This document shows, piece after piece, positions 749 through 52,069 of a stretch of DNA of 53,049 bases. This DNA comes from a virus (lineage: Duplodnaviria; Caudoviricetes). The stretch is taken from positions 1-53,049 of the IMG/VR virus record IMGVR_UViG_3300007972_000001; one strand, written 5' to 3'. The position numbers and the translations under genes were made by a program. The notes under the pieces were generated by a model. It saw nothing but the letters and a program-made list of their open reading frames with translations, ran no database searches and had not been told where the DNA came from. Position 1 is the first letter of the stretch; each line of letters opens with the position of its first letter.

Positions 749-1810
749 GTGATTGAACATCGTGGGAAAAAGGGTTGCTTAGTTGGTGGAAGCCTAATAG
801 CTACTCGATTTGGGTTCCGTATGCTGTCGGAATTATGCCCACGATCAGAAGGAACTGAAACGCCTAACGACCTTCAAGTGTATTCTCCTGTTGGCCTTGT
901 GCCAGTATCAGCAGTTCATAACACAGGTATACAACCAACGGTTCAAGTGACAACCGATATTGGCATTGTTCTAACTTGCACCCTAGATCACGGTTGGTTG
1001 GCCGATAGAGAAGGGCAGATGGGTTGGATTGAAGCCAAAGACTTGGCTTATGGTGAAGAGCTGGCTGTTGAATTGGGGGACTGGCCTCGGCACGATTCTC
1101 GCATCTTTAACGTCCCACAGAACATCGCCAACAATTACGTCAGAGAAACGGTTATATCCTCGTCAGAACTTGGTATGGATATCGATGATGACCTCCGTTT
1201 CGCCTTGCTAGGTTTAGCGTCGTTCGCCTTTCAAAATGGCTCAGGTCTAGTGCTAAAAGGTAACTCAAAAGCTTACAAAGAATGGTCTGACGTGTTTGCC
1301 ATGAAGATGCTGCGAAACAGTCGGACTAATCAATATGCCCGAAATATTTCGGGCAGTTCCGAAGTCTCGCTACCTCGTGAGTTTTCTAGGTTCTTTGTCG
1401 AAAAGATCGTAGGTAGAGGGGAGAACTCTCTTCATGCGTTGCTGTGCCAGAGTACCAGACGATCAGCCTTGGCCTGGTTAGCAGCTCTGATTAGACTTGG
1501 TTATTTAGAATTGAAACATTCGGATTGTAAAGTTCAAACTCAGGCTTTTCCTGTGCCTGTAGCGCGTATTTTGCACTTGTTGTTTCTCAGACTAGGTGTA
1601 AGAGCCGAATTAGCCATTAGCTTGGGCACAGCCAGTGTGGTTTTACCTACGTCTGTTCTGAATACCAATCTCGACAAGCGAGCTAGCCCGATAGAGAAGA
1701 CGATGGTAATCGGTGTGAGAAAAGGTGAGCCACAAATGGTCTTTGATTTGACTGTTCCCAATTCTCACAGTTTCTCTGCCTGTGGTTTAGTATCTAGGAA
1801 TAGCCTATGA
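749..1810 (+). CDS. Stand-alone intein (Hint plus degenerate LAGLIDADG) with only 9-aa and 2-aa exteins
   Basis: GGGGAG at 736-741 then in-frame GTG at 749; MIEHRGKKG|CLVGGSLI (block A, Cys at 776), TCTLDH (block B), VFDLTV (block F), GLVSRN|SL-stop (block G). Stop overlaps the next ATG (ATGA). Confidence 0.85.
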   Translation: MIEHRGKKGCLVGGSLIATRFGFRMLSELCPRSEGTETPNDLQVYSPVGLVPVSAVHNTGIQPTVQVTTDIGIVLTCTLDHGWLADREGQMGWIEAKDLAYGEELAVELGDWPRHDSRIFNVPQNIANNYVRETVISSSELGMDIDDDLRFALLGLASFAFQNGSGLVLKGNSKAYKEWSDVFAMKMLRNSRTNQYARNISGSSEVSLPREFSRFFVEKIVGRGENSLHALLCQSTRRSALAWLAALIRLGYLELKHSDCKVQTQAFPVPVARILHLLFLRLGVRAELAISLGTASVVLPTSVLNTNLDKRASPIEKTMVIGVRKGEPQMVFDLTVPNSHSFSACGLVSRNSL

Positions 1811-2061
1811 CAAATGGTGTGCTAACTCACGCAGAGCGCGCAGTTTTATCTGTGGTTAACCAACGCAGTTCCTCAATTGTTGGCAACAATTGCCATCAAG
1901 AAAAGTTTAACACTCGGGTAGTAGCTTCGCTCGCTATTCGTGGGTTGGTTCGACGCTTGGATAAAGTAGATATACTCACAATGACAGAGCTTGGTAAGCA
2001 AGTTCTCGGTGCAGCAAAATACAATGTCTTGTTAGGGGTATACACGTATGAGGTATTATAA
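1807..2061 (+). CDS. Small hypothetical protein, winged-helix-like
   Basis: ATGA-coupled ORF; LAIRGLV...LTMTELGKQVL resembles the end of a wHTH wing. Confidence 0.5.
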   Translation: MTNGVLTHAERAVLSVVNQRSSSIVGNNCHQEKFNTRVVASLAIRGLVRRLDKVDILTMTELGKQVLGAAKYNVLLGVYTYEVL

Positions 2062-2617
2062 CCCTGATGGGAGTCGAAATATGCTGACGCCTGGATACCC
2101 AAGTCGTCAGCGACCAGTTATTTTGCAGAAAGCACGAGCGGTTTCTAACCTGTCTGCAAAAGCCTTAGAAAAGCTACGAAAGAAAGCTCGTAGGGAAGAA
2201 CGTCGTATTAGAAGATGGTTGGATCAAGAGAAGATTGAAATAGATGCGGACCATTATTTGGATCTGCATGCTTCTGTGTCTGAATCGACGATGGTGAATC
2301 TCCTAAACGTAGCGTTGAGGAGTAACGCCGTCGTTGATGCTGTTCGTAAGGCAAATATTGCCCTATCTGAAAATTTGAACATGGATGACCTAAGCATTGA
2401 GTCTCCAGAAATTGTTAGGTTTACGACACTAGCTGCCCGTTTTGAGATGATGAGGGTAGTGCTAGAAAACATTAGTATTCCAGAACACCATAGAGCGCAG
2501 ATGCTTTCTAGGTACGTAGAGAGGCTGATACCCACTTCACAATTCGCGGCTCGTAAATCACCTGATCCCTTCGCTCAGGTACAAGAACAACTCAACCGGC
2601 TCGGATTGAACAAATGA
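2048..2617 (+). CDS. Hypothetical helical protein, candidate terminase small subunit
   Basis: 189 aa, basic N-terminus, ATGA-coupled to terL; assignment by position only. Confidence 0.4.
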   Translation: MRYYNPDGSRNMLTPGYPSRQRPVILQKARAVSNLSAKALEKLRKKARREERRIRRWLDQEKIEIDADHYLDLHASVSESTMVNLLNVALRSNAVVDAVRKANIALSENLNMDDLSIESPEIVRFTTLAARFEMMRVVLENISIPEHHRAQMLSRYVERLIPTSQFAARKSPDPFAQVQEQLNRLGLNK

Positions 2618-5600
2618 AATACAGAGCTAAACGCGCCACTGTCCTAGAAAACTGCTTGTCCTGCACCAAGTATTCTAGGTGCAAGTATGAAGCAAAGAAG
2701 TGGAATTTTTTGTGCCACAGGTTCCGTTCTGTTGAAGATGACCCCACACCAACGGTGACTGAACCAGAAGTTACACTCCCCAAGAAGAAGGTCAAAACAA
2801 AAGGGCTTAAAACCCTTAGAGTGCAGACTACAGATGAAGTTGACCTAGAGGCTACCGATAAAAGTGGTAAGGACTTTAGGAGGTATCTCAAGGAGCTATC
2901 AGAAAGCGATGGTGTAATCCTTGATGATCCTAGAGTAGATGACCGTGATTTTAAGCAAGCACCAAACTTTTTAGAGTGGTGTACCGGCAAGGAGTTTCTC
3001 AATACTGAACCTTTTGCTAAGCAGCTCCAACTTGGCATACAGTTCCATGCAGAGTGGTGCCCAAAGTGCTCGGACTCTGATTATGTAACAGATATACCTA
3101 TAGATGCGACGGTCGATGAAATGTTGGAGAGAATCCAACTGATGAACTACGGCAAGTGCCCTCGTTGTAAGGGAACCAGAGCCGAGTTCTTCACTGAGGG
3201 CGATCTGCCTATGTTTCAGGACATGATCGCCGTTATCGGACAGCGCGGTGGAAAGTGCGTTTCTGGAGACACTTGGGTGTTGACAGATAATGGCTTACAA
3301 CGTATGCGGCAGGTTGTAGATCAACAGACAACCACTGTTGCCAGCAATGACGGTTCTGTTCTCGACGTAACCAATTGGTGGAGCAAAGGCCAAAAACCTG
3401 TTATTGACTTGACGACTGAGATAGGTCAGATGATCACGCTGACTGGCTCTCATCCGATCTATACCTCTGTTGGGGATAAGAAGGCTAAGGATTGCATCGG
3501 GCGATACGTTCCTTTGTATGCAGGGCAAAACAAATTTCCTTCCTTTAAGCGTCGTCACAAGCTGCATCTAGACGGTGCAATTATGGCCGACAGGATCACG
3601 CAAGGTTTCGTTGAGGAAAACTTGCACAGTGACGGTCGTAAGAACCCAATGCGTGTTGGGTTATCCGATCTCATAATGACGATGGACAGGGACTTTTGGT
3701 TGAAATTCTTACGCCAAGGGTTCTTTTCTCGTTACACTCACGGTCCTGTGCTAGTTTGGCAGTTACCTTTTGCAGGGTTTGCCCGAGACATTCAAACTGT
3801 TCTCTTAAACCTCGGTGTCTTCTCTCGTATCATTAAAAAGACCATTACTGTCGAAGGTAGGATGGCTCTACGGCTGGCTAGACTATGTGGAGCTCTATCT
3901 CTCGTAAATGTTTGGATGAGTCAGACCGTCTTTAAGGATTATCAGGCCTGGTACGATACCTTTGGTGCTGGCCCTAGAAAGATTATTGAGACAAGCCTGC
4001 AAGCCATTTTAGTGGATGTCGAGCCTCATATTCCAGACCTACCCAACTCGACTCATCGCTTCATGCGAGATAGTATGGGTAACTATATCGAGCGTGTTAG
4101 GAATAGCGACATTTCTCGTTGGGAGCTGTCCTTTGTTATCCGAAAGTATATCGAGCCGCTTCGCTTCTATCTAAATCCCTTAGGGAAAATGGCGATAGAT
4201 CGCCTGTATCAGATCATAGATCCAGAGGTTGCTTGGGTTAAAGTGACCGGCGCGCGAAGTGGTCGTATGGTAGACGTTTATGATATTGAGGTGCCGCAGA
4301 CAAGACACTTCCTTGCTAATGGGTTGTGGGTTCATAACAGCGTCTCTCTTGGTCATAACATCACTTACACTGCTCACAAGTTTATCAAGCTCGGTAATCC
4401 TAGCAAATACTTTGGCTTGCCACCTACAATCTTGCATGGAAATGTAGTTGCTACTACTCACGCGCAGGCTAAGGAATCTGTGTGGGACCCAATGCTAGAG
4501 TTGATGGACGAAAGCCCTTGGTTCAGCAACTACCACGAGTTCTTGAAAGATCGCGGCGAGACTATTGGTGAGGAGCTATTCCGCATCAAGGACACATTTG
4601 CCTACTATCGGCATCGTGGCTTACAGATGGGCCCCAGCTCGCCTAATAAAAGGAACCTTCGCGGTAGGACTCGGTTCTGGGCAGCCATCGATGAGCTTGG
4701 CTGGTTCGGTGGTGATGAAGGTGCTGTCAAAACAAACGGTTCGGAAGTATATAAGGCCCTCGCTCGAAGCTTGCAGACTTTAAGGTCTCGTTCTCGTGCG
4801 CTCATACAGCAGGGCGTATATGACTTTCCGGTTGCAGGTATGTACTGTATCTCTAGCCCTAGCGACATTAATGATCCTATCATGACGCTCTATCGAGACG
4901 CCAGTAAGGTCAAGACAATGTATGCGGTGAACTACCCAACATGGGAGTTCAACCCAATGATTACTAGAGAGGACTTGTCCAGAGAGTTTGAGACGGATTT
5001 TGCTGCTGCCATGCGAGACTTTGGTGCTAGACCGCCAATGTCCACATTGCCGTTCGTGAGCAAGTACTCAGACTTTAAGGGTGTATTCAACCGGAACATA
5101 ACAAATGCCGCCGCGATCAAGCAGTTGAAGGTGATCAGCAAGGGCGGTCGCAAGATGACTGGTGCTTCTATCGACTTTATATGGCATGACGCCTCTATTG
5201 GAAAGTTGATGACGCTTGATCCAGGTTCTGTGAACAACTCCTTTGCTCTAACTGTGAGCCACATTGATCCAGAGTTGGGCATAGTCTTTGACCTACTGGC
5301 TGAGATTATCCCGCTCAAGCGCCGTGAAATCAACTTCCCTCAAATCGTCAAGCACGTTCTTGAACCCATCATTGAGAAGATGGGTATCAGAGTTATCGCT
5401 TCTGATAGGTGGCAGCACAAGCTTCTACTGCAAGGGCTTGAGGAAAAGTACGGTATTCCATATATCGAGTACAAGTGCAAGTACTCGGACTTCCTAGATT
5501 GGCGCGACGCCACTAGAGAGGAACAGTATAGCATGCCTGCTCCAGAAATGAAGCGGGATGATATTCTGGCGGTCAATAGTTCCAACTACCGTAACGCCTT

Positions 5601-5934
5601 TATGGGCAAGCCTATCTCCCACTTGATCTATCAAGCTTTGACTGTCCAAGACGTTCCCGGTAAGACGGTCGAAAAAGGAACAGACACTACCGATGACGTG
5701 TTCCGTGCTATGGTGGTTGCACACGCTCTACTCAACGAACCCGAAGTAGCAGAGTTAGTTCAAGGTGAGTTGAGGAATGGTAACTACGGTATCGGTGCAG
5801 TGGCAGGTATGTCAGGCGGCTATGGTGGCAGTTCTGTAAAAGGCCATAAGAGCGTCAATATCCCAATTGCCATTGGTGGGTCAGGCGCTCAATCTATACA
5901 GGGTAGCCGTTTAGGGGTATTAGGTGGAAAATGA
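2614..5934 (+). CDS. terL: Terminase large subunit with intein and Cys-rich N-terminal extension
   Basis: Walker A IGQRGGK|S (after splicing), LRGRT..AAIDELGW Walker B, CISSP motif III, RNase H-like nuclease LMTLDPG...SDRWQ...TDDVFRA; CxxC pairs in the N-terminus. Confidence 0.92.
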   Translation: MKYRAKRATVLENCLSCTKYSRCKYEAKKWNFLCHRFRSVEDDPTPTVTEPEVTLPKKKVKTKGLKTLRVQTTDEVDLEATDKSGKDFRRYLKELSESDGVILDDPRVDDRDFKQAPNFLEWCTGKEFLNTEPFAKQLQLGIQFHAEWCPKCSDSDYVTDIPIDATVDEMLERIQLMNYGKCPRCKGTRAEFFTEGDLPMFQDMIAVIGQRGGKCVSGDTWVLTDNGLQRMRQVVDQQTTTVASNDGSVLDVTNWWSKGQKPVIDLTTEIGQMITLTGSHPIYTSVGDKKAKDCIGRYVPLYAGQNKFPSFKRRHKLHLDGAIMADRITQGFVEENLHSDGRKNPMRVGLSDLIMTMDRDFWLKFLRQGFFSRYTHGPVLVWQLPFAGFARDIQTVLLNLGVFSRIIKKTITVEGRMALRLARLCGALSLVNVWMSQTVFKDYQAWYDTFGAGPRKIIETSLQAILVDVEPHIPDLPNSTHRFMRDSMGNYIERVRNSDISRWELSFVIRKYIEPLRFYLNPLGKMAIDRLYQIIDPEVAWVKVTGARSGRMVDVYDIEVPQTRHFLANGLWVHNSVSLGHNITYTAHKFIKLGNPSKYFGLPPTILHGNVVATTHAQAKESVWDPMLELMDESPWFSNYHEFLKDRGETIGEELFRIKDTFAYYRHRGLQMGPSSPNKRNLRGRTRFWAAIDELGWFGGDEGAVKTNGSEVYKALARSLQTLRSRSRALIQQGVYDFPVAGMYCISSPSDINDPIMTLYRDASKVKTMYAVNYPTWEFNPMITREDLSREFETDFAAAMRDFGARPPMSTLPFVSKYSDFKGVFNRNITNAAAIKQLKVISKGGRKMTGASIDFIWHDASIGKLMTLDPGSVNNSFALTVSHIDPELGIVFDLLAEIIPLKRREINFPQIVKHVLEPIIEKMGIRVIASDRWQHKLLLQGLEEKYGIPYIEYKCKYSDFLDWRDATREEQYSMPAPEMKRDDILAVNSSNYRNAFMGKPISHLIYQALTVQDVPGKTVEKGTDTTDDVFRAMVVAHALLNEPEVAELVQGELRNGNYGIGAVAGMSGGYGGSSVKGHKSVNIPIAIGGSGAQSIQGSRLGVLGGK
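3256..4338 (+). mobile_element. Intein (361 aa) inserted in the terminase Walker A motif
   Basis: GGK|CVSGDTWV (block A), LTGSH (block B), VYDIEV (block F), FLANGLWVHN|S (block G); central region has LAGLIDADG-like remnants (KFLRQGFF, ARDIQTVLLNLGVFSRI). Confidence 0.93.
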
Positions 5935-9044: not shown

Positions 9045-9914
9045 ATGGTTAGACCCAATCTATATGTGGCGTCCAAAGCCAAGTACGGAGAAACGTGGCA
9101 ATTGCTACGAGACGTGCAAGGCTGGCCCATCATCAGTACTTGGATCGATGAGTATAAGCCAGGTCAGACTGAAGACCTATCTGAGCTTTGGGACCGCTGT
9201 GTTGATGAGGCTATGAACGCTGATGCCTTGTTGGTGTACGCAGAGTCCGGAGAGACACTGAAAGGTGCTTTGGTCGAAGTTGGTGTTGCTATCGGTAGTA
9301 GTGTTCCAATTTATGCAGTTGTTCCAGACAACGTTGGCTCGTGGGTACATTATCCTTATGTCAAGCGATTTGCTTCTATAGCAGCCGCTCTAGCTTCCAT
9401 AGAAGAAGACTTTGAACTGCCTTCATACGGTGACGTTGCCGGCACCAAACTATTTGGGCCAATTCTTTCTGAGACAGACTGGTTGCCCGAGGTTCATACT
9501 ATAGATACTAAGGAGAAATTCCTTGAAGTGTATGGCAATCCAATAGAGAGTGATCCCCCAATACCTATCAATAAGCTGTACGACATTCCTCCACCAATTT
9601 GGGTAGATAGACCAGCTTCTGGTACAGCAGAAGCCATAGCAACGGCAATAGATTGGTTATACAGTGATGATTTTTTCGACAGGATGAGAATTGTCACTAG
9701 GTCCGATCTAGAGGAGCATTGCTCGTTTGTCACGCATCGATTTGATGAGCGTGGACAGTTCTCTGTCGTACCAAAGTCTAAGGAAAGCAAAGCTCTCCTA
9801 GAAAAGAGTGCCACACTCGGAGTAGATTTTGTGTGCTTTGATTCTGTATCTGATCTGGTTGCTGAACTTGGACAGCGCATCAAGGCAGCCCAGAAAAAGC
9901 ATGGTTTGATATGA
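9045..9914 (+). CDS. Nucleoside 2-deoxyribosyltransferase-like domain fused to an unknown C-terminal region
   Basis: LYVAS...IISTWID...NADALLVY...LKGALVEVGVAIG...PIYAV fits the NDT-like flavodoxin fold with the conserved Glu; GAGG RBS. Confidence 0.65.
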   Translation: MVRPNLYVASKAKYGETWQLLRDVQGWPIISTWIDEYKPGQTEDLSELWDRCVDEAMNADALLVYAESGETLKGALVEVGVAIGSSVPIYAVVPDNVGSWVHYPYVKRFASIAAALASIEEDFELPSYGDVAGTKLFGPILSETDWLPEVHTIDTKEKFLEVYGNPIESDPPIPINKLYDIPPPIWVDRPASGTAEAIATAIDWLYSDDFFDRMRIVTRSDLEEHCSFVTHRFDERGQFSVVPKSKESKALLEKSATLGVDFVCFDSVSDLVAELGQRIKAAQKKHGLI

Positions 9915-12730: not shown

Positions 12731-13501
12731 ATGACTATTCTCAGAGCCTACGGATGGCGTCCGGATAAGCCGTGTGTCCACGACACATACCGCACTGCAC
12801 CGCGCTTTTTGCGCGCCTTTACTCTCCCAAGCAATGTTGATCTAGAGCCTCACTTTCCAGGGGTATACGATCAAGGTCAGACTGGCTCCTGCACAGGTAA
12901 TTCCTCTGGCAGCGTTGTCGAGTTCCTTCGACTGAAACAGCGTCTTTGGGACTTTACGCCCTCCCGCCTGTTCATCTACTACAACGGTCGCGCTCTTGAA
13001 GGAACCACTGATCAAGATGCTGGTGCTGAGATTCGTGACGTTATCTCTGGCCTCTTAAAGTTTGGTGCACCTTCCGAGAAAGTGTGGGCGTTTGATCCAA
13101 GCCTGCTAACCGTCAAGCCGTATACCTCAGCCTACGAGAAGGCTAAGCTGGATCTAATCTCTGGTGCAGATCGTGTCTTGCAGACAGAGCAGGCTATCCG
13201 CTCTACCCTTGCTGGTGGTGAGCCAATTGTCTTTGGTATCACAGTTTACGAGTCCTTCGAGAGCGAAGCCGTTGCAAGCTCTGGTATTGTTCCGATGCCC
13301 GGTACTCGTGAACAATCAGTCGGTGGACACGCTATTGTGATTGTTGGTTACGATCATGCTAAGCGTATGTTCAAAATCAGAAACTCTTGGGGTAAGGGTT
13401 GGGGTCAACGCGGCTATTGCTGGCTACCGTATGACTACGTTCTTAGCCCTGATCTGGCTGACGACTTTTGGGTTTTGAACGGCATTAGGGTCGCCGCCTA
13501 A
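12731..13501 (+). CDS. Papain-like cysteine peptidase, family C1A
   Basis: DQGQTGSCTGN (oxyanion Gln and catalytic Cys), SRLFIYY, GGHAIVIVGY, IRNSWG..WG..GY. Confidence 0.95.
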   Translation: MTILRAYGWRPDKPCVHDTYRTAPRFLRAFTLPSNVDLEPHFPGVYDQGQTGSCTGNSSGSVVEFLRLKQRLWDFTPSRLFIYYNGRALEGTTDQDAGAEIRDVISGLLKFGAPSEKVWAFDPSLLTVKPYTSAYEKAKLDLISGADRVLQTEQAIRSTLAGGEPIVFGITVYESFESEAVASSGIVPMPGTREQSVGGHAIVIVGYDHAKRMFKIRNSWGKGWGQRGYCWLPYDYVLSPDLADDFWVLNGIRVAA

Positions 13502-13523
13502 ACAGTCAAATTAACCACAATAA

Positions 13524-13554
13524 AAGGCCGCAGCAAAAACTGCGGCCTTCTTTT
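13524..13554. terminator. Bidirectional intrinsic terminator
   Basis: AAGGCCGCAG-caaaaa-CTGCGGCCTT with T/A tracts, between convergent genes. Confidence 0.85.
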
Positions 13555-13577: not shown

Positions 13578-14093
13578 TCAATCTTGCTCATTGTTCTCTC
13601 CGTTTGGGTTAAAGTACGTCAAGTAGCAATCTTTTAAGAACCTATCCTTAGGATCCAAGAAGCCATCTGTCACGACTGACATTCCAAGTAATCTACCTAA
13701 ATAACCATGATTCTTAACGGTATCGTGTGTAGAGCAAGGATCAAACAGGTCACCGTATTTCGCAGCATCTCCGACTATACAAGACCACCCATCAGGAATC
13801 ATGGCAAATACGTTTGGTTCTATCTTGTACGCTTCACAAAAGGTTTTCCTTGCCTTGGCTAAATCCTCAGGCGTGAATGGTACAGTGACTGTAATTCTGT
13901 CACCAGAGAGGTCTCGAATTTGGTTAATAGATGCGCCGTTGCGCCGAACCTCTTCTAAAGACCGTCTCATATCTCTCATCTTATTTTCAACTACCTCTGT
14001 CGGTTTCTTTGAAGTCTCGAACATTTCTCTAAGGGCTTGCAGCTTTTCGCCAGTCAGCTCCGCATCGTCCGCTAGGATCAGTATCATGGCCAT
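13578..14093 (-). CDS. Truncated paralogue of the major capsid protein
   Basis: PDGWSCIVGDAAKYGDLFDP and GYLGRLLGMSVVTDGFLDPKDRFL align with MCP PAGWSDIVGNASAWGNLFDP and GYLGRLLGMPITTDGFRDPNQRVL; GGAGA RBS. Confidence 0.9.
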   Translation of the reverse strand: MAMILILADDAELTGEKLQALREMFETSKKPTEVVENKMRDMRRSLEEVRRNGASINQIRDLSGDRITVTVPFTPEDLAKARKTFCEAYKIEPNVFAMIPDGWSCIVGDAAKYGDLFDPCSTHDTVKNHGYLGRLLGMSVVTDGFLDPKDRFLKDCYLTYFNPNGENNEQD

Positions 14094-14104: not shown

Positions 14105-14134
14105 AAAAGAAAAGAGGGGCATTACGCCCCTCTT
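14105..14134 (-). terminator. Intrinsic terminator fused to the RBS of the MCP paralogue
   Basis: Minus strand AAGAGGGGC-gtaat-GCCCCTCTT-TTCTTTT-GGAGA. Confidence 0.8.
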
Positions 14135-19132: not shown

Positions 19133-19288
19133 ATGCCCGACACTAGCCAACTTGAAGGTAATGGACTACTACATGCTGCCGAGTTTGCCCTCAAGCGTAT
19201 GTTAAAAACTTTGCTTTGGGGCACCATTGGTACGTTATCAATGGCTCTTGGTTCAGCAGCCTCTACCCTTATTCTACCGCCAATGTGA
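19133..19288 (+). CDS. Small membrane protein (51 aa, absent from the ORF track)
   Basis: GAGG RBS; hydrophobic C-terminal half LLWGTIGTLSMALGSAASTLIL. Confidence 0.45.
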   Translation: MPDTSQLEGNGLLHAAEFALKRMLKTLLWGTIGTLSMALGSAASTLILPPM

Positions 19289-19296
19289 GGTATACC

Positions 19297-26711: not shown

Positions 26712-27812
26712 ATGCTTCAGCTTCGTTCAAAGACCCCGGGTCGCGCGATGCCCGTGCTTGCCTCGGGTCGCGCTGGCTCCAATGAGCCCTTCTTCAACAA
26801 GGCTGGGACGATCAATGCCTCGTCCCAAGCCGACCTGCTCGGCCAGATTTCGGCCATGCTCCAGGCCGTTGCCAGCCGTGAGGTCACTTTCGACCACATG
26901 GAAAACGCTGGTGTTGACACGTCGTATGGCACGGTTGCCGAACGCCGCGCTCACGTCATCGAGGCTTTCAATGACAAGTCCTCGAACAAGTGGGCCGAGC
27001 TTGGCTCGAACATTGGCGCGGTGATCTATGAAACGATCCAGCGTCAGGGTTTTATGCGCCGCTTCTTGCTGCGCGCTGACCTGCAACAGGGCAACGATCC
27101 CCGCCTGAACGTTCGCTTCCAGAACGTTACGGCGATGGTCGCTTCGGGTCCGGCCTCGTGCAACCCACGCTTCGTCAAAGAGAAGTACCTGATGCCTCCG
27201 GAGTTCTATGTCGAGGCTAACCCTCGTCTGGAACTGAAGGAAATCAACCGCGGCACTAGCGATCTGCTGGATGACGTGTTCGCCCGCGCGCAGGAACAGA
27301 TCATGGTTGCGGAAGACCGCGCCTATCTGAACATGCTCAACCAGTCGGTCGGCCTCGCCAACAACCTGCAGGTTCTCACTGGCGGTCTGACCCCGTCGAA
27401 CGTCGCCAACTTCCGCGCAGTGGTTGCTCAGTGGGGTCTGCCGACCTCTAATCTGATGATCACCCCGGCTGGTTGGTCGGATATCGTCGGTAACGCTTCG
27501 GCTTGGGGTAATCTGTTTGACCCCGTCACGCAGTACGAGATTGTCCAGACGGGCTATCTCGGTCGCCTGCTCGGCATGCCGATCACCACCGACGGCTTCC
27601 GTGACCCGAACCAGCGTGTTCTCGGCGCGAACGACGTGTTCCTGATCTCTGATCCGGTCAATCACGGCGCTTATACCGATCGTGGTCCGGTCGAAGCTAA
27701 TCCGACTGACGGCTACTATCGTGGCGAGCCATCGCGCGGCTGGTACATGGTCGAGATTCTCTCGATGGCCGTCGCCAACGTCAGGTCGTTCGTCAAGGGT
27801 CAAAGGGCTTAG
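26712..27812 (+). CDS. Major capsid protein (HK97 fold inferred)
   Basis: 366 aa, strong RBS and codon bias, position after scaffold and decoration genes, IMVAEDR spine helix and GYLGRLLGMPI motif, strong terminator downstream. Confidence 0.88.
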   Translation: MLQLRSKTPGRAMPVLASGRAGSNEPFFNKAGTINASSQADLLGQISAMLQAVASREVTFDHMENAGVDTSYGTVAERRAHVIEAFNDKSSNKWAELGSNIGAVIYETIQRQGFMRRFLLRADLQQGNDPRLNVRFQNVTAMVASGPASCNPRFVKEKYLMPPEFYVEANPRLELKEINRGTSDLLDDVFARAQEQIMVAEDRAYLNMLNQSVGLANNLQVLTGGLTPSNVANFRAVVAQWGLPTSNLMITPAGWSDIVGNASAWGNLFDPVTQYEIVQTGYLGRLLGMPITTDGFRDPNQRVLGANDVFLISDPVNHGAYTDRGPVEANPTDGYYRGEPSRGWYMVEILSMAVANVRSFVKGQRA

Positions 27813-31441: not shown

Positions 31442-31443
31442 AA

Positions 31444-31473: not shown

Positions 31474-31494
31474 ACAGATTCAAAGGGGTTGAAA

Positions 31495-31758
31495 ATGACC
31501 TTGAAAATGCTGAACTCTACACCGTTCCCTAAGACTATCCGTAGCCATAGCGGAAACAGCGCCGTTCTTCCCGCCAAGACGGTATCTCTCGTCGATGACG
31601 AGTTCGATTGGATTATTCCGACAGGTGTGAAGATTCTGGAAAGAATCACAGACAAGCAGTTGTCTGGTCCGGTTACGCCGAGCGAAGCGCCGGTTGTGAC
31701 GGAGGAACCAGCGCCGGTTGTCATGAACCTCGTGGGTGTTGAGCCCTCCACGAAATAA
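31495..31758 (+). CDS. Small hypothetical protein upstream of the sheath
   Basis: AAGGGG RBS, ATG at 31495. Confidence 0.6.
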   Translation: MTLKMLNSTPFPKTIRSHSGNSAVLPAKTVSLVDDEFDWIIPTGVKILERITDKQLSGPVTPSEAPVVTEEPAPVVMNLVGVEPSTK

Positions 31759-31779
31759 TCAAGCCAGTAGGAGGCGATA

Positions 31780-34080: not shown

Positions 34081-34605
34081 ATGCCTTCAATCTCGTTTGA
34101 ACAGATCCAGGCGCTGCCGGATGTACTGCTCGATGATCGATTCGAGTTGCTCATCAACCCAAAGGGTGACGGCGCTGGTAATACCGAGGCTCTCACGCTG
34201 CGCTGTCAAGGCGCAGCGATGCCGGGTTCTCAGATCGAACAGGTCCTTGTTGGCCTGTCCGGTCATCAGGTTCACTTCCGTGGCCGAAAGATTTACCCCA
34301 ACACGCTCGCCATTACTTATGTCGAGACGCACGAAGGTATCGTCATGACGACCCTTCGTCAGTGGAAGGAGTACATCGTTGGTAGTAGCTCCGGTAACGG
34401 CGCTTCTAAGCAGGATTACTCTGTCACGGCCACCCTCAATATCTTTGACGAGGGCGGCAATGTCGCTCTCTCCATCGACATTGAAGGCTTGTGGATCACT
34501 GACATTCAGGATACGCAGCTTAACGGTTCTGCCGCGCAGCCTTTCCTTGTTATGGTGACATTCAGCTATGACCGCGCCTTGCAGGATGGGGTTAGCATCA
34601 GCTAA
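34081..34605 (+). CDS. Tail tube protein (gp19-like)
   Basis: Directly after the sheath; RF....AAMPG, HFRGRK.Y, ITYVET, VTFSYD. Confidence 0.9.
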   Translation: MPSISFEQIQALPDVLLDDRFELLINPKGDGAGNTEALTLRCQGAAMPGSQIEQVLVGLSGHQVHFRGRKIYPNTLAITYVETHEGIVMTTLRQWKEYIVGSSSGNGASKQDYSVTATLNIFDEGGNVALSIDIEGLWITDIQDTQLNGSAAQPFLVMVTFSYDRALQDGVSIS

Positions 34606-34618
34606 TTAGGAGGCTGAT

Positions 34619-34864
34619 ATGCTAAAAACAAAAGTAAGAAAACCTGCAAAGTATGGCTCTAAGCTGCACCGGAAACGGATCAGCCTTTCCAAGCTTAGCA
34701 AGAGTAGGGTTAACCCTAAGCATCATCGAAAGAAGATGCAGATGCTACAAAAGGTGTATGAGCATCACGAAAAGCACCTTATACAGCATGGAAAGCCGCC
34801 GCCGCGCAGCCACACCAACACGAAGTACTTAAAGAAGCTCAGTAGGTCCCTCTTCATGAGGTGA
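34619..34864 (+). CDS. Small very basic Lys/His-rich protein
   Basis: GGAGG RBS; composition dominated by K, R and H. Confidence 0.6.
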   Translation: MLKTKVRKPAKYGSKLHRKRISLSKLSKSRVNPKHHRKKMQMLQKVYEHHEKHLIQHGKPPPRSHTNTKYLKKLSRSLFMR

Positions 34865-34888
34865 GATTTTCTGAAATCGATTGTAAAC

Positions 34889-34923
34889 AAGAGGCGTAGG
34901 GACAACTCTACGCCTCTTTCTTT
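34889..34923 (+). terminator. Intrinsic terminator fused to the RBS of the tube paralogue
   Basis: AAGAGGCGTAG-ggacaact-CTACGCCTCTT-TCTTT-GGAGA. Confidence 0.8.
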
Positions 34924-34935
34924 GGAGAAAATAGC

Positions 34936-35313
34936 ATGGATATTGAGATTATGGATCTTCCGCAGTGTGTCTGCAGGGACAAATTTGCTGTCCTAATGTC
35001 TGGGACTAGTGAAGCTACTTCCAAAACGATCAATCTGCTCACTCAGAACGTTGAAGTGTTCCGTGGCAAGTCTAGCACTACCGTCAGTCTTCACCTAGTA
35101 GAGACTACCGATTTGGAGGCAAAGAAAGCCATCGAGGAGATCAAAGGACTAAAGACGATCAACCTAAAAGTCGTTTTAATGTCTACTGAGGATGAGATGC
35201 TTGACACTATAGAAGATGGTGCCTTTTTCTACTACCATGAGTCAATCCGATTAAGTAACGAGCTTCCTATTTCTCCGCTCTTAAGGGTTGTCGTTTTACG
35301 GTCTGTAGACTAA
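34936..35313 (+). CDS. Shortened, divergent tail-tube-like protein
   Basis: IMDLPQCVCRDKFAVLM, LHLVETTD and PLLRVVVLRSVD parallel tube IQALPDVLLDDRFELLI, ITYVETHE and PFLVMVTFSYD. Confidence 0.55.
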   Translation: MDIEIMDLPQCVCRDKFAVLMSGTSEATSKTINLLTQNVEVFRGKSSTTVSLHLVETTDLEAKKAIEEIKGLKTINLKVVLMSTEDEMLDTIEDGAFFYYHESIRLSNELPISPLLRVVVLRSVD

Positions 35314-35318
35314 TGGCG

Positions 35319-35347
35319 TTGAAACCCATTAGTCTCAATTTATCTTG
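35319..35347 (+). promoter_or_regulatory. Candidate late promoter/operator motif (copy 3)
   Basis: TTGAAAC-ccattagtc-TCAATTT-atc-TTG, same spacing as copy 1. Confidence 0.5.
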
Positions 35348-35459
35348 TCAGACGGCGCGCCTTTTGTGCCGTCTGCGCCGAACCCTGTCGGCGACTTGTC
35401 TTGTTAGCGTCACCGAGATGATCCCGAGGGTGCCGTATGTCTAGCGTTAGGGGGTCGTT

Positions 35460-36014
35460 ATGCCATCCATAAGCTTTGAGGATATTGTAGGGTTAGGCGA
35501 TCCAGCGCCCGCTTGGCGATACTATTGCCAATTCCCAACAATCAACGGCTACTTTATCTCCCCACAAGCTGTCCAGCGTATAGGCCTTCCTCACGCAAGC
35601 GTAGAGGTTAATCCTACCTATATTGCCGCATGGGCAAAGAACTACCCCAAAGACGTAAGCGTTGGTCAACTTACATTCACACTCTTTGAAGACATTATAT
35701 ACTCCGCTATTCAGTATTTTATGGTGTGGAGATCATTGGTCGTCGATGACTCTGGCAATTATGGCATACCTGGTGGCCCTAACGGCTACAAGAAAGACAT
35801 CCGAGTTGACTTGTTAGATTACACTGGAACGTCAGCTCTTTCGCTGACGTACATAGGTTGTTATCCAATGGGTCCAATGGAGTACATGCTAGACAGTGAG
35901 ACCAGCCAAGTCGTCACAACGGCGGTCAATATCAGTGTGGACTCAGTAAAGATCGGTGGTCTAAACACCGACCCAATTCAGAACCCAGTAGCCGACTTTC
36001 TCGGTGGAAGTTGA
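35460..36014 (+). CDS. Second tube-fold protein (tube initiator, gp54/gp48-like)
   Basis: Same N-terminus MPSISFE as the tube; LTFTLFED, W..LV, YKKDI, GCYP, NISVD. Confidence 0.8.
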   Translation: MPSISFEDIVGLGDPAPAWRYYCQFPTINGYFISPQAVQRIGLPHASVEVNPTYIAAWAKNYPKDVSVGQLTFTLFEDIIYSAIQYFMVWRSLVVDDSGNYGIPGGPNGYKKDIRVDLLDYTGTSALSLTYIGCYPMGPMEYMLDSETSQVVTTAVNISVDSVKIGGLNTDPIQNPVADFLGGS

Positions 36015-36026: not shown

Positions 36027-37286
36027 ATGAGCAATAAAGGCGGAATGACCGTCTCGCATCTGAAGGTAGATGAGGTTGAGCGCCTCGGCCTCAAAAAGAT
36101 CGAAAAGAAGACCAAGCCTCTTTCGGGGTTGGCGGCAGAATTTGAAAAGAACAAGAGCAATACTATCCATGGCCCGATGGACCCACCGAAGCCGGAGGAT
36201 ATTCTAACTACTGGCTTCAGCGCTCCCGGCATCGAAATACCCCCGATGCCTCGTCAGCCTGTGCAGCCCAAAGAGCAAGAGAAAGAGTGGTTCAGACCGA
36301 CTGGCCTAGATCGTGGCATTCTGCCTGAACAACCAGAGAAGCCCATCTACCCAAAGACTAACCCAACGCCGGAACCTGAACCGCAGAATGAAATCAGAGA
36401 GCGTGAAACTCTGAGCGGTCGCACAGGTTATGACCGTTGGGAACCGCCGTCGAAGTCTCTGTGGTACAAGACGGACAAGCTAGAGGTTCGTCGTTTCACG
36501 ATTGACGATCTACTAGTTCTCAATCGTGGTCTGCAACACAAGAACCTAACATCCCTGATTGACGGTGTTGGTCGAACGGTGGACTACGACGTTCGTGATC
36601 TAACTATCCCAGATTTCCATCATTTGATGGTTTGGCATCGCATCTACTCATATCTCAAGACGCCCTACACTGTCCGCTGGACCAGTAAGTATGGCAATGA
36701 GAATGAAACCACTATCAAGAACACTCGCTTTATCGTCAAGGAAGTAGGCCTGACGGCTGAAGAAGCTATGGCGTGGAAGCAGCGTGGGTTTGCCCCACCA
36801 CGAGTTCGAGACTGGGAGTTCTTTGAAGAGAAGCTAGATGAGGATACTCGCTTCCTCTTCCTTCGCGCTCAGTATATCGATCTAGATGTGGTCAGTGATC
36901 GTATTGACGAGCTGCGTCGCCAGCGTGATCCAATGCCTACAGTTCGCGCTCGTATTGAGTACTTACGACAGGGTGGCACCGAACTGCTTGAAGACATTCG
37001 TGAGTTCAAGCAGGCTCTTGGTGAGTATGGTGTCACTGAGAAAATCAAGGTGGCAGATCGCTTCTTTGATCCTCAGAAATGGGTCGAAAAACTAGAGAAG
37101 AACATTGAGGAAATCAAGAACATCCAGCGCCTCAGTTCTGATTTGGACTTCTCTGAAGAAATGAATCTCCTATCTCTTGAGCTACGATCTATGAGCGAGC
37201 GAATAGAGCAAGGTGATATCATTACTCCTGACGAAGAGGAGGTCGCACTGACGTTTTCAGTTTTCAACTTGTTTCCCGGTATATGA
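36027..37286 (+). CDS. Tail/baseplate assembly chaperone (gp26-like)
   Basis: PPSKSLWY, VRRFTIDD, DLTIPDF..LM..HRIYSY motifs; position between the tube genes and the tape-measure-like genes. Confidence 0.6.
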   Translation: MSNKGGMTVSHLKVDEVERLGLKKIEKKTKPLSGLAAEFEKNKSNTIHGPMDPPKPEDILTTGFSAPGIEIPPMPRQPVQPKEQEKEWFRPTGLDRGILPEQPEKPIYPKTNPTPEPEPQNEIRERETLSGRTGYDRWEPPSKSLWYKTDKLEVRRFTIDDLLVLNRGLQHKNLTSLIDGVGRTVDYDVRDLTIPDFHHLMVWHRIYSYLKTPYTVRWTSKYGNENETTIKNTRFIVKEVGLTAEEAMAWKQRGFAPPRVRDWEFFEEKLDEDTRFLFLRAQYIDLDVVSDRIDELRRQRDPMPTVRARIEYLRQGGTELLEDIREFKQALGEYGVTEKIKVADRFFDPQKWVEKLEKNIEEIKNIQRLSSDLDFSEEMNLLSLELRSMSERIEQGDIITPDEEEVALTFSVFNLFPGI

Positions 37287-46110: not shown

Positions 46111-46533
46111 ATGGCTAATCCAAACATAGTAGCCAAGTCGCTGACCTTCGACATAACTTGGCTGTCGGACATCAATACGAATTTTGAAAATAGCGTCCCA
46201 CAGACTTTGGTGTATGCTATTGAGGAAATAAACGGCCTCATCATCAACGTGCTAACCACACGTATTGGTGAAGAATGGTGGGAGCCTCTGTATGGGTCTA
46301 ATCTGCCGCTCAGAGTGTTTGACCCAATCAATGACACGACTGCTTGGTTACTACAGCACGACATTGAAGACGCTCTTGCTACTTGGGTACCCTTGATAAC
46401 GGTCGATAGGTCTAGCAGTAAGATAAAGCCTTATCCTGATCTCAAGCTTTACGATATCCAATTAGCCTATGTTGTCCCATCAATGTTCGTTAAGACGTAT
46501 TATCAATTCCAAGTCGGCCCTAACCAGGGATAA
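46111..46533 (+). CDS. Baseplate wedge gp25-like protein
   Basis: NVLTTRIGE..WEPLYGSNL...FDP...I..ALATWVP. Confidence 0.9.
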   Translation: MANPNIVAKSLTFDITWLSDINTNFENSVPQTLVYAIEEINGLIINVLTTRIGEEWWEPLYGSNLPLRVFDPINDTTAWLLQHDIEDALATWVPLITVDRSSSKIKPYPDLKLYDIQLAYVVPSMFVKTYYQFQVGPNQG

Positions 46534-51709: not shown

Positions 51710-51752
51710 AAAAAGCGAGCCGCGCAATTTTTGAACGGCTCGCTTTTTCTTT
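51710..51752 (+). terminator. Intrinsic terminator ending the tail operon, fused to the next RBS
   Basis: AAAAAGCGAGCCG-13 nt-CGGCTCGCTTTTT-CTTT-gtc-AGGAGA. Confidence 0.8.
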
Positions 51753-51766
51753 GTCAGGAGACAATT

Positions 51767-52069
51767 ATGTTCCCAGTAGCACCAACTTCTAGCTTCACCT
51801 ACATCAAGGTTCCATGCTCGTTCGCCGCCTTCACAGATAGCATCATGGAGCACATTAGGAGTAGGAATGCAGGTAGCTTGGAGGGAGCCATAAATAGGTT
51901 GATAAGTAGGTCATTTGACGTAGAGTTTACGGATAGTCAGGCCACGTATCTACGAAGTACCCAGATAGAAGTCGATGAAGATGGACTTCTCAGTCACGTG
52001 GTATTTGCGGTTGATGCACTAGTCGATGGTGTGAAATTGGGCAAGCAATTGGAGTTCACAATAAGGTGA
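51767..52069 (+). CDS. Hypothetical 100 aa protein, possibly gp25/sheath-C-terminal fold
   Basis: AGGAG RBS; helix followed by three strands with weak resemblance to 46111. Confidence 0.5.
   Translation: MFPVAPTSSFTYIKVPCSFAAFTDSIMEHIRSRNAGSLEGAINRLISRSFDVEFTDSQATYLRSTQIEVDEDGLLSHVVFAVDALVDGVKLGKQLEFTIR

What the first reader, a model, noticed from the sequence alone, without database searches (positions are those of the whole stretch)
749..52069. Dispersed set of truncated self-mimics of virion and packaging proteins (candidate decoy or assembly-interference system)
Seen: five loci carry partial copies of this phage's own essential proteins: an MCP fragment (13578-14093, strong), a shortened tube (34936-35313, moderate), a sheath N-terminal motif (9432-9542, short), a TerL Walker-A-like extein peptide (749-1810, short) and a possible gp25-like copy (51767-52069, weak). 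Three sit behind a similar terminator-RBS junction. Established: capsid, tail tube and terminase are triggers of bacterial immunity (CapRel, DSR2, Avs), and the phage protein DSAD1 blocks DSR2 by competing with the tail tube. Inference: these are assembly-incompetent decoys that titrate immune sensors, or dominant-negative inhibitors of competing relatives.
Basis: partly seen in the sequence, partly recalled or inferred. Interest (0 to 1): 0.88.

Follow-up and report, generated by a model that had tools for sequence, protein, structure and literature searches.

The report
Stand-alone capsid A-domain protein in phage
One of the five claimed "self-mimics" is real: a small gene copied from the middle of this giant phage's own capsid protein, and it belongs to a previously undescribed set of such mini-capsid genes in related phages, while the other four claims are weak, misread or chance.

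Summary
The window is a 53-kb piece of a phiRSL1/"Lupandier"-type jumbo myovirus.

Of the five claimed self-copies:
- **MCP fragment (13578-14093, minus strand):** confirmed. BLASTP gives 39% identity over 105 aa to the phage's own major capsid protein (MCP), E 3e-21.
- **125-aa ORF (34936-35313):** weakly supported as a degenerate tube paralog. Profile E is 0.0094 among 64 proteins, and 1 of 2000 shuffles reaches its score.
- **"TerL peptide" (749-1810):** a free-standing intein. It is as similar to a Staphylococcus-phage helicase intein as to the TerL intein.
- **Sheath motif and gp25-like ORF:** chance or unsupported.

The three terminator-RBS junctions are real. A five-part decoy system is not supported.

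The MCP fragment proved more interesting than claimed. It keeps only a remnant of the spine helix plus the A-domain core of the HK97 fold. It clusters with seven small metagenomic proteins that share the same domain boundaries.

Analogous stand-alone A-domain genes exist in cultured phages:
- Lu11 gp106 carries two tandem modules.
- Alexandravirus gp247 occurs in 43 records. It is syntenic and under purifying selection (dN/dS 0.08-0.24), yet it has highly divergent alleles.

The most likely role is a soluble capsid A-domain mimic used in a conflict or in assembly control. The function was not tested.

The parts
13578..14093 (-). 171-aa mini-MCP gene. A poorly modelled N-terminal helical part (a remnant of the MCP spine-helix region) is followed by the A-domain core, then a short unique tail.
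   Evidence: BLASTP gives E 3e-21 to own MCP. Family alignment. AF2 with a 21-row alignment gives pLDDT 72. All best Foldseek PDB hits are HK97-fold capsid proteins or encapsulins, but weak (best 7sj5_A, E 0.025, probability 0.93).
13608..13898 (-). Codons 66-162: the confidently folded A-domain core (strand, helix, strand, two helices, strand, helix, three strands). It carries the FDP loop and the G..G..LGM..TD.F.DP block.
   Evidence: pLDDT is 84-94 per 10-residue block. pN is 0.33 against pS 0.84 for residues 96-158. Identities to own MCP are enriched at family-conserved columns: 48% against 22%, Mann-Whitney p 0.005.
14112..14134 (-). Hairpin terminator directly upstream of the mini-MCP ribosome-binding site (…CCCCTCTTTTCTTTTGGAGACAAATAATG).
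   Evidence: Short contigs of two independent public runs, 100% identical, bridge it.
13522..13551 (.). Bidirectional terminator between the mini-MCP gene and the convergent papain-like peptidase gene.
   Evidence: 13 pairs on the minus strand, 10 on the plus strand.
26712..27812 (+). Major capsid protein, the parent family of the fragment.
   Evidence: phrog_2522 at 6.8e-69. PDB 6wkk_A 'Gp27 major capsid protein' at 1.8e-15. 34-38% identity to MCPs of phiRSL1, Erwinia and Xanthomonas jumbo phages.
34936..35313 (+). 125-aa orphan ORF between two tube paralogs. Probably a degenerate, shortened tube paralog.
   Evidence: Positional argument.
34889..34918 (+). Hairpin directly upstream of the 125-aa ORF (…CGCCTCTTTCTTTGGAGAAAATAGCATG).
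   Evidence: Read.
51767..52069 (+). 100-aa orphan ORF behind the third hairpin-RBS junction. It is not gp25-like.
   Evidence: ESM Atlas feature hits of 0.92-0.96 to small clusters, some carrying RPA/RepA-type replication-initiator families (a lead only).
51711..51748 (+). Hairpin directly upstream of the 100-aa ORF (…GGCTCGCTTTTTCTTTGTCAGGAGACAATTATG).
   Evidence: Read.
749..1810 (+). Free-standing intein ORF. It has an extein-like stub of 9 aa (from GTG 749, behind GGGGAG) or 21 aa (from ATG 713), an intein running from Cys to Asn, then Ser-Leu-stop.
3256..4338 (+). Intein inside TerL (residues 215-575), inserted in the P-loop (…QRGGK|C…VHN|S…).
9432..9542 (+). Claimed sheath-like motif inside ORF 9045-9914. 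A chance match, not part of anything.
   Evidence: 6 of 14 identities, E 0.49.

Best explanation
**Shown**
- The 171-aa ORF at 13578-14093(-) is a real protein-coding gene derived from the phage's HK97-fold major capsid protein.
- It keeps only a degraded spine-helix remnant and the A-domain core. It lacks the N-arm, the E-loop and most of the P-domain.
- It is one member of a rare family of small proteins (85-171 aa) with the same domain boundaries.
- Comparable stand-alone A-domain genes occur in cultured relatives: Lu11 gp106 has two tandem modules, and Alexandravirus gp247 is found in 43 records.

**Inferred**
- Because it lacks those elements, it cannot be a lattice subunit.
- The protein is a soluble mimic of the capsid A-domain. 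It acts in trans on something that normally touches that domain.
- That target is either MCP itself, where the protein would cap or delay capsomer formation in a co-infecting relative or in the phage itself, or a host factor that senses MCP.
- It lies outside the head module, among DNA-metabolism genes and behind a terminator, and has low GC3. This fits a low-abundance accessory protein, not a structural one.
- The allele hypervariability of the Alexandravirus counterpart suggests a conflict role.

The other four 'self-mimics' are not part of this.

**My odds**
- Real, maintained, MCP-derived gene family: about 0.85.
- Trans-acting A-domain mimic in a conflict (competitor phage or host sensor): about 0.45.
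For: **Homology**
- BLASTP E 3e-21 to own MCP.
- 4 of 7 small family members hit phrog_2522, the family of the window's own MCP.
- The AF2 core has pLDDT 84-94, and the best PDB matches are all HK97-fold, though weak.

**Maintained rather than decaying**
- Synonymous sites are saturated (pS 0.82), while pN is 0.33 in residues 96-158.
- GC3 is 0.45 against 0.73 for the MCP, so the copy is old and has taken on local composition.
- Only 3-4% of 1000 neutral simulations that reach 32-39% identity keep the frame free of stops.
- Identities are enriched at family-conserved columns, p 0.005.

**Family**
- phmmer against 1.84 billion representatives gave 16 hits.
- 5 of the 7 aligned end within a few residues of the same column.
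- They form one clade with the fragment, SH-aLRT 98.9 / UFBoot 99.
- An AU test rejects an exclusive fragment plus own-MCP pairing, p 0.022.

**Recurrence**
- Lu11 gp106 has two modules, each about 44% identical to Lu11 MCP residues 242-308, and it is sister to that MCP.
- Alexandra gp247 is found with the family HMM at E 9e-9.
- Its homologues occur in 43 records, all full length and syntenic, at 37-100% identity.
- Seven pairs with dS below 1 give dN/dS of 0.08-0.24.
- The gene is far more divergent than its neighbour. For 2910A against AD1, UvsX is 99% identical and the mini gene 50%.

**Context**
- It is the last gene after a terminator in a minus-strand unit with a RuvC-like resolvase, 12.6 kb from the MCP gene.
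- The Foldseek BFVD top hit is a 287-aa protein of the same length as Lu11 gp106. It is followed by small uncharacterised proteins of PaBG and Erwinia phage Y3.
Against: - No call measures expression, virion content or binding.
- The neutral-decay simulation is only moderately strong (3-4%).
- The N-terminal half is nearly saturated (pN 0.63), and the invariant EDR motif of the spine helix is lost.
- The small-protein clade could be partly long-branch attraction. Before the small proteins were added, the fragment was sister to its own MCP at 92/98.
- Genomic context of the seven metagenomic relatives could not be retrieved, so their completeness rests on start codons and shared ends.
- The gene is absent from the nearest contigs examined. 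In 4 of 4 IMG/VR records, one of them complete, only the full MCP matched.
- The gene was also not detected in phiRSL1 or PaBG by HMM, so it is dispensable.
- The Alexandravirus gp247 clade is not shown to share origin or function with the window's gene. Its placement in the tree is weak and no neighbouring genes are shared.
- A trigger mimic would be expected to activate an MCP sensor, not block it, unless it binds as an antagonist.
Confidence: 0.5

Rival explanations
1. Five dispersed truncated copies of capsid, tube, sheath, terminase and baseplate proteins form one decoy or dominant-negative system.
For: The MCP copy is real. Three of the ORFs share a hairpin-RBS junction. The 125-aa ORF has weak tube-profile similarity.
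Against: - The sheath motif is at chance level, E 0.49.
- The gp25-like claim has no sequence support, E 29, and the ESM lead points to other families.
- The 'TerL peptide' is the stub of an intein that matches a helicase intein equally well.
- The shared junction is a terminator U-tract followed by a Shine-Dalgarno sequence, which any such junction would resemble.
- None of the ORFs shares sequence with another.
Confidence: 0.04
2. The mini-MCP serves the phage's own capsid. It is either a minor virion or procapsid accessory (for example sitting at capsomer centres or a special vertex), or a chaperone that holds MCP A-domains until assembly of a very large capsid.
For: - It keeps the most conserved MCP surface-forming motifs, the FDP loop and the G..G..LGM..TD block.
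- Lu11 gp106 lies beside a gene annotated as head-tail connector.
- Structural-gene duplication is a known trait of this phage group. Two sheath genes are described in PMC7412058 (passages read), and tube paralogs stand in tandem here.
- T4 gp24 is a capsid-protein paralog used at vertices (recalled; PDB 1yue appears among the fold hits).
Against: - The gene lies among DNA-metabolism genes, behind a terminator, 12.6 kb from the head genes.
- GC3 is 0.45, whereas the head and tail genes have 0.61-0.73.
- It is missing from close relatives, including one complete genome.
- In Alexandraviruses its alleles diverge to 37-55% while flanking genes stay at 69-99%. That is unexpected for a part that must fit a nearly invariant MCP.
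Confidence: 0.25
3. It is a functionless relic: a partial duplicate of the MCP gene that happens still to be open.
For: - It is orphan-like. Only itself was found among 43 candidates of similar length in 5.8 billion proteins.
- Its branch is very long, 1.63 against 0.17 substitutions per site.
- The N-terminal half is nearly saturated.
- 3-4% of neutral simulations stay open.
Against: - pN is well below pS in the core.
- Identities are enriched at conserved columns.
- All gaps against the MCP keep the frame.
- It has a good ribosome-binding site and its own terminators.
- It shares derived characters and a common end point with seven other small proteins.
- Analogous genes are under purifying selection in 43 cultured phages.
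Confidence: 0.1
4. For the 125-aa ORF alone: it is an unrelated orphan gene, and the tube resemblance is chance.
For: BLASTP is not significant. hhalign gives 1%. There are no PHROG or Pfam families. The AF2 pLDDT is 36. The best ESM Atlas score is 0.82, within the range of shuffled proteins.
Against: - Profile E is 0.0094 among 64 proteins, ranked directly after the two tube genes.
- Only 1 of 2000 shuffles reaches its score.
- z-scores are 1.8-3.5 against all 6 type-1 and type-2 tube proteins, but at most 0.7 against the three type-3 ones.
- It occupies the position of a third tube paralog in L004 and L007.
Confidence: 0.35

Closest known systems
T4 gp24 vertex protein (a paralog of the major capsid protein gp23)
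   Same: A phage-encoded duplicate of its own HK97-fold capsid protein. (Recalled; PDB 1yue 'T4 capsid vertex protein gp24' is among the fold matches.)
   Different: gp24 is a full-length HK97-fold subunit built into the shell at the vertices. The window's protein keeps only the A-domain core, lies outside the head module, and has codon usage unlike the structural genes.
Ccm of SaPIbov5 (a satellite-encoded capsid-protein homolog that redirects helper capsid assembly)
   Same: A homolog of a phage capsid protein used in trans to interfere with or redirect capsid assembly (abstracts of PMC8569155 and PMC5052747 seen in the listing).
   Different: Ccm is encoded by a satellite and acts on its helper phage. 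The abstract seen calls it a homolog of the phi12 capsid protein; that it is a full-length homolog that co-assembles is recalled. The gene here is phage-encoded, domain-only, and cannot co-assemble as a lattice subunit.
DSAD1, the phage inhibitor of the tail-tube sensor DSR2
   Same: A phage protein that counteracts a defence triggered by a virion protein (abstracts of PMC10981675, PMC11087589 and PMC11263360 in the listing).
   Different: Those abstracts do not describe DSAD1 as a copy of the tube protein. No sensor partner is known here, and nothing was tested.
Tai (tail assembly inhibition) systems of prophages, PICIs and P4-like satellites
   Same: Proteins encoded by mobile elements that block a virion assembly step of competing phages, with self-protection during the element's own lytic cycle (abstract of PMC11364771).
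   Different: Tai acts on tails. From what I read, it is not described as a mimic of the blocked component. The window's gene lies in a lytic-type jumbo phage contig.
Inteins in P-loops of phage ATPases, and intein-derived free-standing endonucleases such as yeast HO (for ORF 749-1810)
   Same: The ORF has Cys1, a TxxH block B, a terminal Asn, a +1 Ser and LAGLIDADG-type middle blocks. It stands next to a TerL gene with a P-loop intein and a DnaB-like gene with an intein. Phage TerL inteins are well documented (listing and passages of 10.1101/2025.01.02.630785 and PMC5050341). HO is recalled.
   Different: This intein has almost no exteins (9-21 aa and 2 aa). A search for 'free-standing intein' and four similar phrases found 0 papers.

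Membership tests
HK97-fold major capsid protein family of phiRSL1/Lupandier-type phages (phrog_2522) | Significant sequence homology to family members | tested here: met
   BLASTP E 3e-21 to own MCP. tblastn hits to the MCP genes of 52 phage records. The fragment itself has no PHROG hit at E of 0.01 or below, but 4 of 7 small relatives hit phrog_2522.
HK97-fold major capsid protein family of phiRSL1/Lupandier-type phages (phrog_2522) | Complete fold: N-arm, E-loop, P-domain with spine helix, and A-domain | tested here: not met
   The alignment covers only MCP residues about 178-320 of 366. The invariant EDR motif of the spine helix is lost. The AF2 model shows a confident A-domain core only.
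HK97-fold major capsid protein family of phiRSL1/Lupandier-type phages (phrog_2522) | Encoded in the head module with the codon usage of highly expressed structural genes | tested here: not met
   It lies 12.6 kb upstream on the other strand, next to a RuvC-like resolvase. GC3 is 0.45 against 0.73 for the MCP.
Stand-alone MCP A-domain proteins (proposed here) | Small protein (85-171 aa) whose only recognisable part is the MCP A-domain core, ending shortly after the TD.F.DP..RF block | tested here: met
   Alignment of 7 proteins, 5 of which end within a few residues of one column. One clade at 98.9/99. The AU test rejects the alternative, p 0.022.
Stand-alone MCP A-domain proteins (proposed here) | Co-occurrence with a full MCP gene in the same genome | tested here: inconclusive
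   True for the window, Lu11 and Alexandra.
Tail tube family (phrog_45 / T4 gp19-like), for ORF 34936-35313 | Profile match to tube proteins | tested here: inconclusive
   PHROGs finds 0 families. hhalign gives 1%. My own HMM gives E 0.0094 among 64 proteins, and 1 of 2000 shuffles reaches the score.
Tail tube family (phrog_45 / T4 gp19-like), for ORF 34936-35313 | Tube beta-sandwich fold | tested here: inconclusive
   AF2 single-sequence pLDDT 36. The Atlas's own model has pLDDT 0.35.
Tail sheath, for 9432-9542 | Significant similarity to the sheath N-terminus | tested here: not met
   6 of 14 identities, pairwise E 0.49. The ORF's only weak Pfam hint is Nuc_deoxyrib_tr at E 0.02.
gp25-like baseplate wedge, for 51767-52069 | Similarity to gp25-type proteins or to the window's own gp25-like gene 46111-46533 | tested here: not met
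   Best pairwise E is 29. PHROGs finds 0 families. The ESM lead points to other families.
Intein, for 749-1810 | Splicing blocks: Cys1, TxxH, C-terminal Asn, and a nucleophile at +1 | tested here: met
   Read: …KKG|CLVGG…, TLDH, …VSRN|SL. The penultimate His is replaced by Arg. Pfam Intein_splicing scores 29.6 bits, below the 35.8 cut-off.
Intein, for 749-1810 | Embedded in frame in a host protein | tested here: not met
   The ORF is bounded by stops. The N-side stub is 9-21 aa and the C-side 2 aa. The next ORF starts in another frame at 1807.
Anti-defence decoy or antagonist (DSAD1-like in role) | Binds a host sensor of the mimicked virion protein and blocks it | not testable with these tools
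   The host is unknown and no sensor is at hand.

The most novel reading that the evidence does not exclude
Jumbo phages of the phiRSL1/Lupandier supergroup have repeatedly carved the A-domain out of their own capsid protein, at least twice independently. They keep it as a fast-evolving, allele-swapping accessory gene. This would be a capsid 'self-mimic' weapon that either poisons capsomer assembly of co-infecting relatives or antagonises host sensors of the capsid protein. It would be the phage-encoded counterpart of capsid-derived restriction factors known from animal genomes (recalled: Fv1, enJS56A1).
Probability: 0.3. Interest if true: 0.85.

Novelty: new variant of a known kind. Interest (0 to 1): 0.62.

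Why it matters
Capsid proteins are now known to be major triggers of bacterial immunity, and capsid assembly is a target of inter-element warfare. A family of stand-alone capsid A-domain genes would be a new, directly testable class of phage accessory protein built from the phage's own shell protein.

These genes have three notable properties:
- They are maintained by selection.
- They arose more than once.
- They are hypervariable between otherwise near-identical cultured phages.

The counterparts in cultured phages, Lu11 gp106 and Alexandravirus gp247, make experiments possible now. The finding also corrects annotation: RefSeq labels Lu11 gp106 'major head protein', and gp247 is 'hypothetical'. 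Finally, the case shows that most short 'self-mimic' matches read by eye do not survive statistics.

Tried and rejected
- **Complex prediction** of own MCP (13-row alignment) with the fragment (21-row alignment): the verdict was 'no answer', score 0.01. It carries no weight either way.
- **AF2 of the 125-aa ORF** without an alignment: pLDDT 36, so no fold search was made with it.
- **ESM Atlas for the 125-aa ORF:** best score 0.82, within the noise range.
- **Megablast of window 26000-34000** against 50,697 phage records: no match.
- **The search for related loci with the fragment** in IMG/VR: 32 pattern matches, none confirmed.
- **Genomic context of the small relatives:**
  - P0016 in IMG/VR found nothing.
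  - P0016 and then A5 in JGI metagenomes found nothing. That used both metagenome scans.
- **Profile search with A4** in the 5.8-billion-protein set gave only 5 proteins, one of them new.
- **P0011 and P0015** are repetitive, low-complexity proteins. I set them aside as false positives.
- **P0008 and P0013** are cut-off full MCPs. They were left out of the small-protein set.
- **P0012** was replaced in the trees by its fuller cluster mate P0019.
- **Shared neighbours:** none were found between the window's locus and the Alexandra, Lu11 or other loci.
- **Sequencing runs:** no RNA holder is listed. Four runs labelled marine metagenome hold 10 short contigs, all identical to the window. Uncovered parts mean nothing.
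- **Literature:** searches for a described truncated-MCP paralog or decoy found nothing relevant. The passages read in the PaBG paper mention sheath duplication but no MCP-derived small gene. I found no virion proteome covering gp247.
- **Considered and dropped:**
  - The fragment as a recent lineage-specific duplicate. One search suggested it, but reject it once the small proteins are included.
  - The 81-aa and 125-aa ORFs as two halves of a split tube gene. Neither BLASTP nor tblastn supports this.

Full report
**What the window is.** The 53,049-base window is the whole record held for this genome. It has no terminal repeat and no tRNA genes.

Its genes mark it as part of a jumbo-type myovirus:
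- A DnaB-like helicase 3' end that contains an intein (1-732).
- TerL with an intein in the P-loop (2614-5934).
- Nucleotide-metabolism genes and a RuvC-like resolvase.
- A type IB topoisomerase-like gene.
- The MCP (26712-27812; phrog_2522 at 6.8e-69).
- Sheath and two tube paralogs, tape-measure-like proteins and baseplate genes.

The MCP is only 34-38% identical to those of phiRSL1 and of Erwinia, Xanthomonas, Rhizobium and Pseudomonas jumbo phages. It is 48% identical to the nearest IMG/VR contigs. Four public runs labelled marine metagenome hold short contigs identical to the window. Two of these contigs bridge the start of the fragment gene and its upstream hairpin, so that junction is not an assembly artefact.

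**The five claims.** I translated 64 ORFs and ran an all-versus-all BLASTP.

1. **MCP fragment.** The fragment-MCP pair stands out at 39% over 105 aa, E 3e-21.
2. **TerL-like ORF.** ORF 710-1810 matches TerL only through its intein: 28% over 82 aa at E 5e-4, and 41% over 34 aa.
   - The ORF reads …IEHRGKKG|CLVGG … TLDH … VSRN|SL-stop. This is an intein with a stub of 9 aa (from GTG 749, behind GGGGAG) or 21 aa (from ATG 713), and a two-residue C-side.
   - The stub resembles the TerL P-loop (VIGQRGGK|C).
   - The same ORF matches the intein of a Staphylococcus-phage UvsW helicase at 31% over 130 aa, including GVIEH/GIIEH in the extein.
   - It is therefore a generic P-loop-type intein without a host gene, not a copy of TerL.
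3. **Sheath motif.** It has 6 identities in 14 residues, E 0.49.
4. **gp25-like ORF.** The 100-aa ORF has no similarity to the window's gp25-like gene 46111-46533 (phrog_261 and phrog_43), with E 29. The protein-language-model search points at small replication-initiator-like clusters with scores of 0.92-0.96. That is a lead only.
5. **125-aa ORF.** It is an orphan. BLASTP, hhalign, PHROGs and Pfam give nothing significant, and it did not fold. Three observations nonetheless point to the tube family:
   - A profile of six tube sequences ranks it directly after the two tube genes, at E 0.0094 among 64 proteins. It aligns as two collinear segments that include the family's FRG…VET motif.
   - Only 1 of 2000 shuffles reaches its score.
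   - It lies between tube paralogs, where two related contigs carry a third tube paralog.
   
   I rate it a probable degenerate tube paralog, at about 0.65.

**Anatomy of the MCP fragment.**
- Aligned with 14 MCPs, residues about 29-160 are collinear with MCP residues about 178-320. This is the spine-helix region and the A-domain.
- There is no counterpart of the N-arm, the E-loop, the first P-domain strands or the last 45 residues.
- AF2 with a 21-row alignment gives a confident core at residues 66-162 (pLDDT 84-94 per block) and a poorly defined helical N-terminus.
- All the best PDB matches are HK97-fold capsid proteins or encapsulins, but they are weak. The best is the lambda MCP 7sj5_A at E 0.025 and probability 0.93.

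**Is it maintained?**
- Synonymous sites against the MCP are saturated (pS 0.82).
- GC3 has fallen from 0.73 to 0.45, so the copy is old.
- pN is 0.33 in residues 96-158 but 0.63 in residues 29-95.
- Identities to the MCP are concentrated at family-conserved columns: 48% in the most conserved class against 22% in the least conserved, p 0.005.
- In neutral simulations to the same divergence, 3-4% of 1000 sequences stay free of stops, and this ignores indels.
- The gene has a GGAG site 8 bases before its ATG, and a terminator on each side.

**It is not alone.**
- At similar length, the word-indexed search found only the fragment itself.
- Exhaustive phmmer against 1.84 billion representatives gave 16 hits:
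  - the fragment itself;
  - six full MCPs;
  - two cut-off MCPs;
  - two repetitive false positives;
  - six small proteins of 85-129 aa.
- These small proteins start with their own N-termini and share the block of about 75 aa that matches the MCP. Five of the seven aligned end within a few residues of one column, just after TD.F.DP..RF.
- They are singletons on contigs of 1-49 kb.
- In a 91-column tree they form one clade with the fragment (98.9/99). That clade is nested in the MCP subclade that holds the window's own MCP.
- An AU test rejects the exclusive fragment plus own-MCP grouping, p 0.022. That grouping was what the smaller tree had shown.
- Long-branch attraction cannot be excluded. 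However, the clade shares derived residues (D for the MCPs' N after IVG; RF for RV or KV) and a common end point.

**Counterparts in cultured phages.**
- The tblastn searches with two of the small proteins showed two matching places only in Lu11.
- The family HMM finds two modules inside Lu11 gp106, a 287-aa protein.
  - Each module is about 44% identical to Lu11 MCP residues 242-308.
  - gp106 is unique to Lu11 among 50,697 records.
  - It is sister to the Lu11 MCP, away from the small-protein clade. This indicates an independent origin.
- The same HMM finds gp247 of Erwinia phage Alexandra, a 142-aa protein, at E 9e-9. In PaBG and phiRSL1 it finds only the MCP.
- gp247 homologues occur in 43 records. 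All are full length and all lie just downstream of the UvsX-like recombinase gene, at 37-100% identity.
- I compared nine of these phages:
  - The seven pairs with unsaturated dS give dN/dS of 0.08-0.24.
  - The gene is far more divergent than its upstream neighbour. For 2910A against AD1, UvsX is 99% identical with dS 0.16, while the mini gene is 50% identical with dS 1.45.
  - That contrast points to replacement by divergent alleles rather than in-place drift.
- Foldseek against BFVD puts a 287-aa protein first (E 6e-6), the same length as Lu11 gp106. Small uncharacterised proteins of PaBG and Erwinia phage Y3 follow.

**Interpretation.**
- Established: this is a maintained gene family derived from the MCP A-domain, and it recurs in this phage supergroup.
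- Inferred: how it acts. It lacks the elements that lock subunits into the lattice, yet it keeps the family's most conserved A-domain motifs.
- The simplest mechanism is a soluble mimic that competes for whatever binds that domain: neighbouring MCP subunits in a capsomer, or a host protein that recognises MCP.
- Its location, the insulating terminator, its low GC3 and its patchy distribution argue against a stoichiometric structural role.
- The allele turnover in Alexandraviruses suggests a conflict.
- A role in the phage's own assembly remains a serious rival.

**Novelty.**
- I found no description of such genes (searches; passages of the PaBG paper).
- RefSeq calls Lu11 gp106 'major head protein' and calls gp247 'hypothetical'.

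**Verdict.** The finding as written, a five-part decoy system, is not supported. Its one strong element is real, and it leads to a modestly novel, testable family.

Noticed in passing
window 749-1810 (+): An intein with essentially no host protein. The N-side stub is 9-21 aa and ends in a P-loop-like RGKKG. The C-side is Ser-Leu-stop. Splicing residues are mostly intact (Cys1, TLDH, terminal Asn, +1 Ser), with Arg in place of the penultimate His. It lies between an intein-bearing DnaB-like gene and an intein-bearing TerL. It may be an intein-derived free-standing homing endonuclease or the remnant of a deleted ATPase gene.
   Followed up: partly
window 1-732 (+) and 2614-5934 (+): Two more inteins. 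One is in the DnaB-like helicase (…GGIYTGN|C…; the C-extein matches phage DnaB-like helicases). The other is in the TerL P-loop (residues 215-575). That makes three Hint-type elements within 6 kb.
   Followed up: partly
window 20166-21860 (+): A 564-aa protein with a eukaryotic-type DNA topoisomerase I catalytic core (PF01028 at 3.4e-18; phrog_23460).
   Followed up: no
window 34081-36014; L004 9196-10606; L007 5744-7616: Tandem tube paralogs. The window has two, with the 125-aa ORF between them. Contigs L004 and L007 have three in a row (173, 210 and 224 aa). L003 has two.
   Followed up: partly
window 34619-34864 (+): An 81-aa ORF, extremely rich in Lys, Arg and His, between the tube gene and the hairpin. 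It has no family match. It could be a real basic protein or a spurious ORF.
   Followed up: no
window 19216-20166, 28847-29863, 30613-31062: Three ORFs share a short domain: 37% over 61 aa at E 9e-6, 43% over 28 aa at E 3e-4, and 72% over 18 aa. There are no Pfam or PHROG hits. This may be a repeated decoration or Ig-like module.
   Followed up: no
window 36027-37286 vs 31780-34056: The ORF after the second tube paralog has a 73-aa stretch 26% identical to sheath residues 526-598 (pairwise E 2e-5).
   Followed up: no
window-wide: GC3 separates the head and tail genes (MCP 0.73, head protein 25956-26684 0.71, tube 0.63, sheath 0.61) from the rest (about 0.39-0.55). The three ORFs behind hairpin junctions have low values (0.45-0.50).
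   Followed up: partly
L024 5478-6341 (Lu11 gp106, NC_017972.1 77477-78340): RefSeq annotates this gene as 'major head protein', but it is a 287-aa tandem of two A-domain-core modules. The real MCP is gp065.
   Followed up: yes
L030-L038 (Alexandravirus-type phages, downstream of the UvsX-like recombinase gene): This is a hypervariable accessory spot. gp247 alleles fall to 37% identity, and the next gene is also replaced in some phages (16-32% identity, or a different length), while UvsX stays at 69-99%.
   Followed up: partly
window 12731-13501 (+): A papain-family cysteine peptidase (PF00112 at 2.7e-12) convergent with the mini-MCP gene. It is a possible prohead or other protease lying outside the head module.
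   Followed up: no
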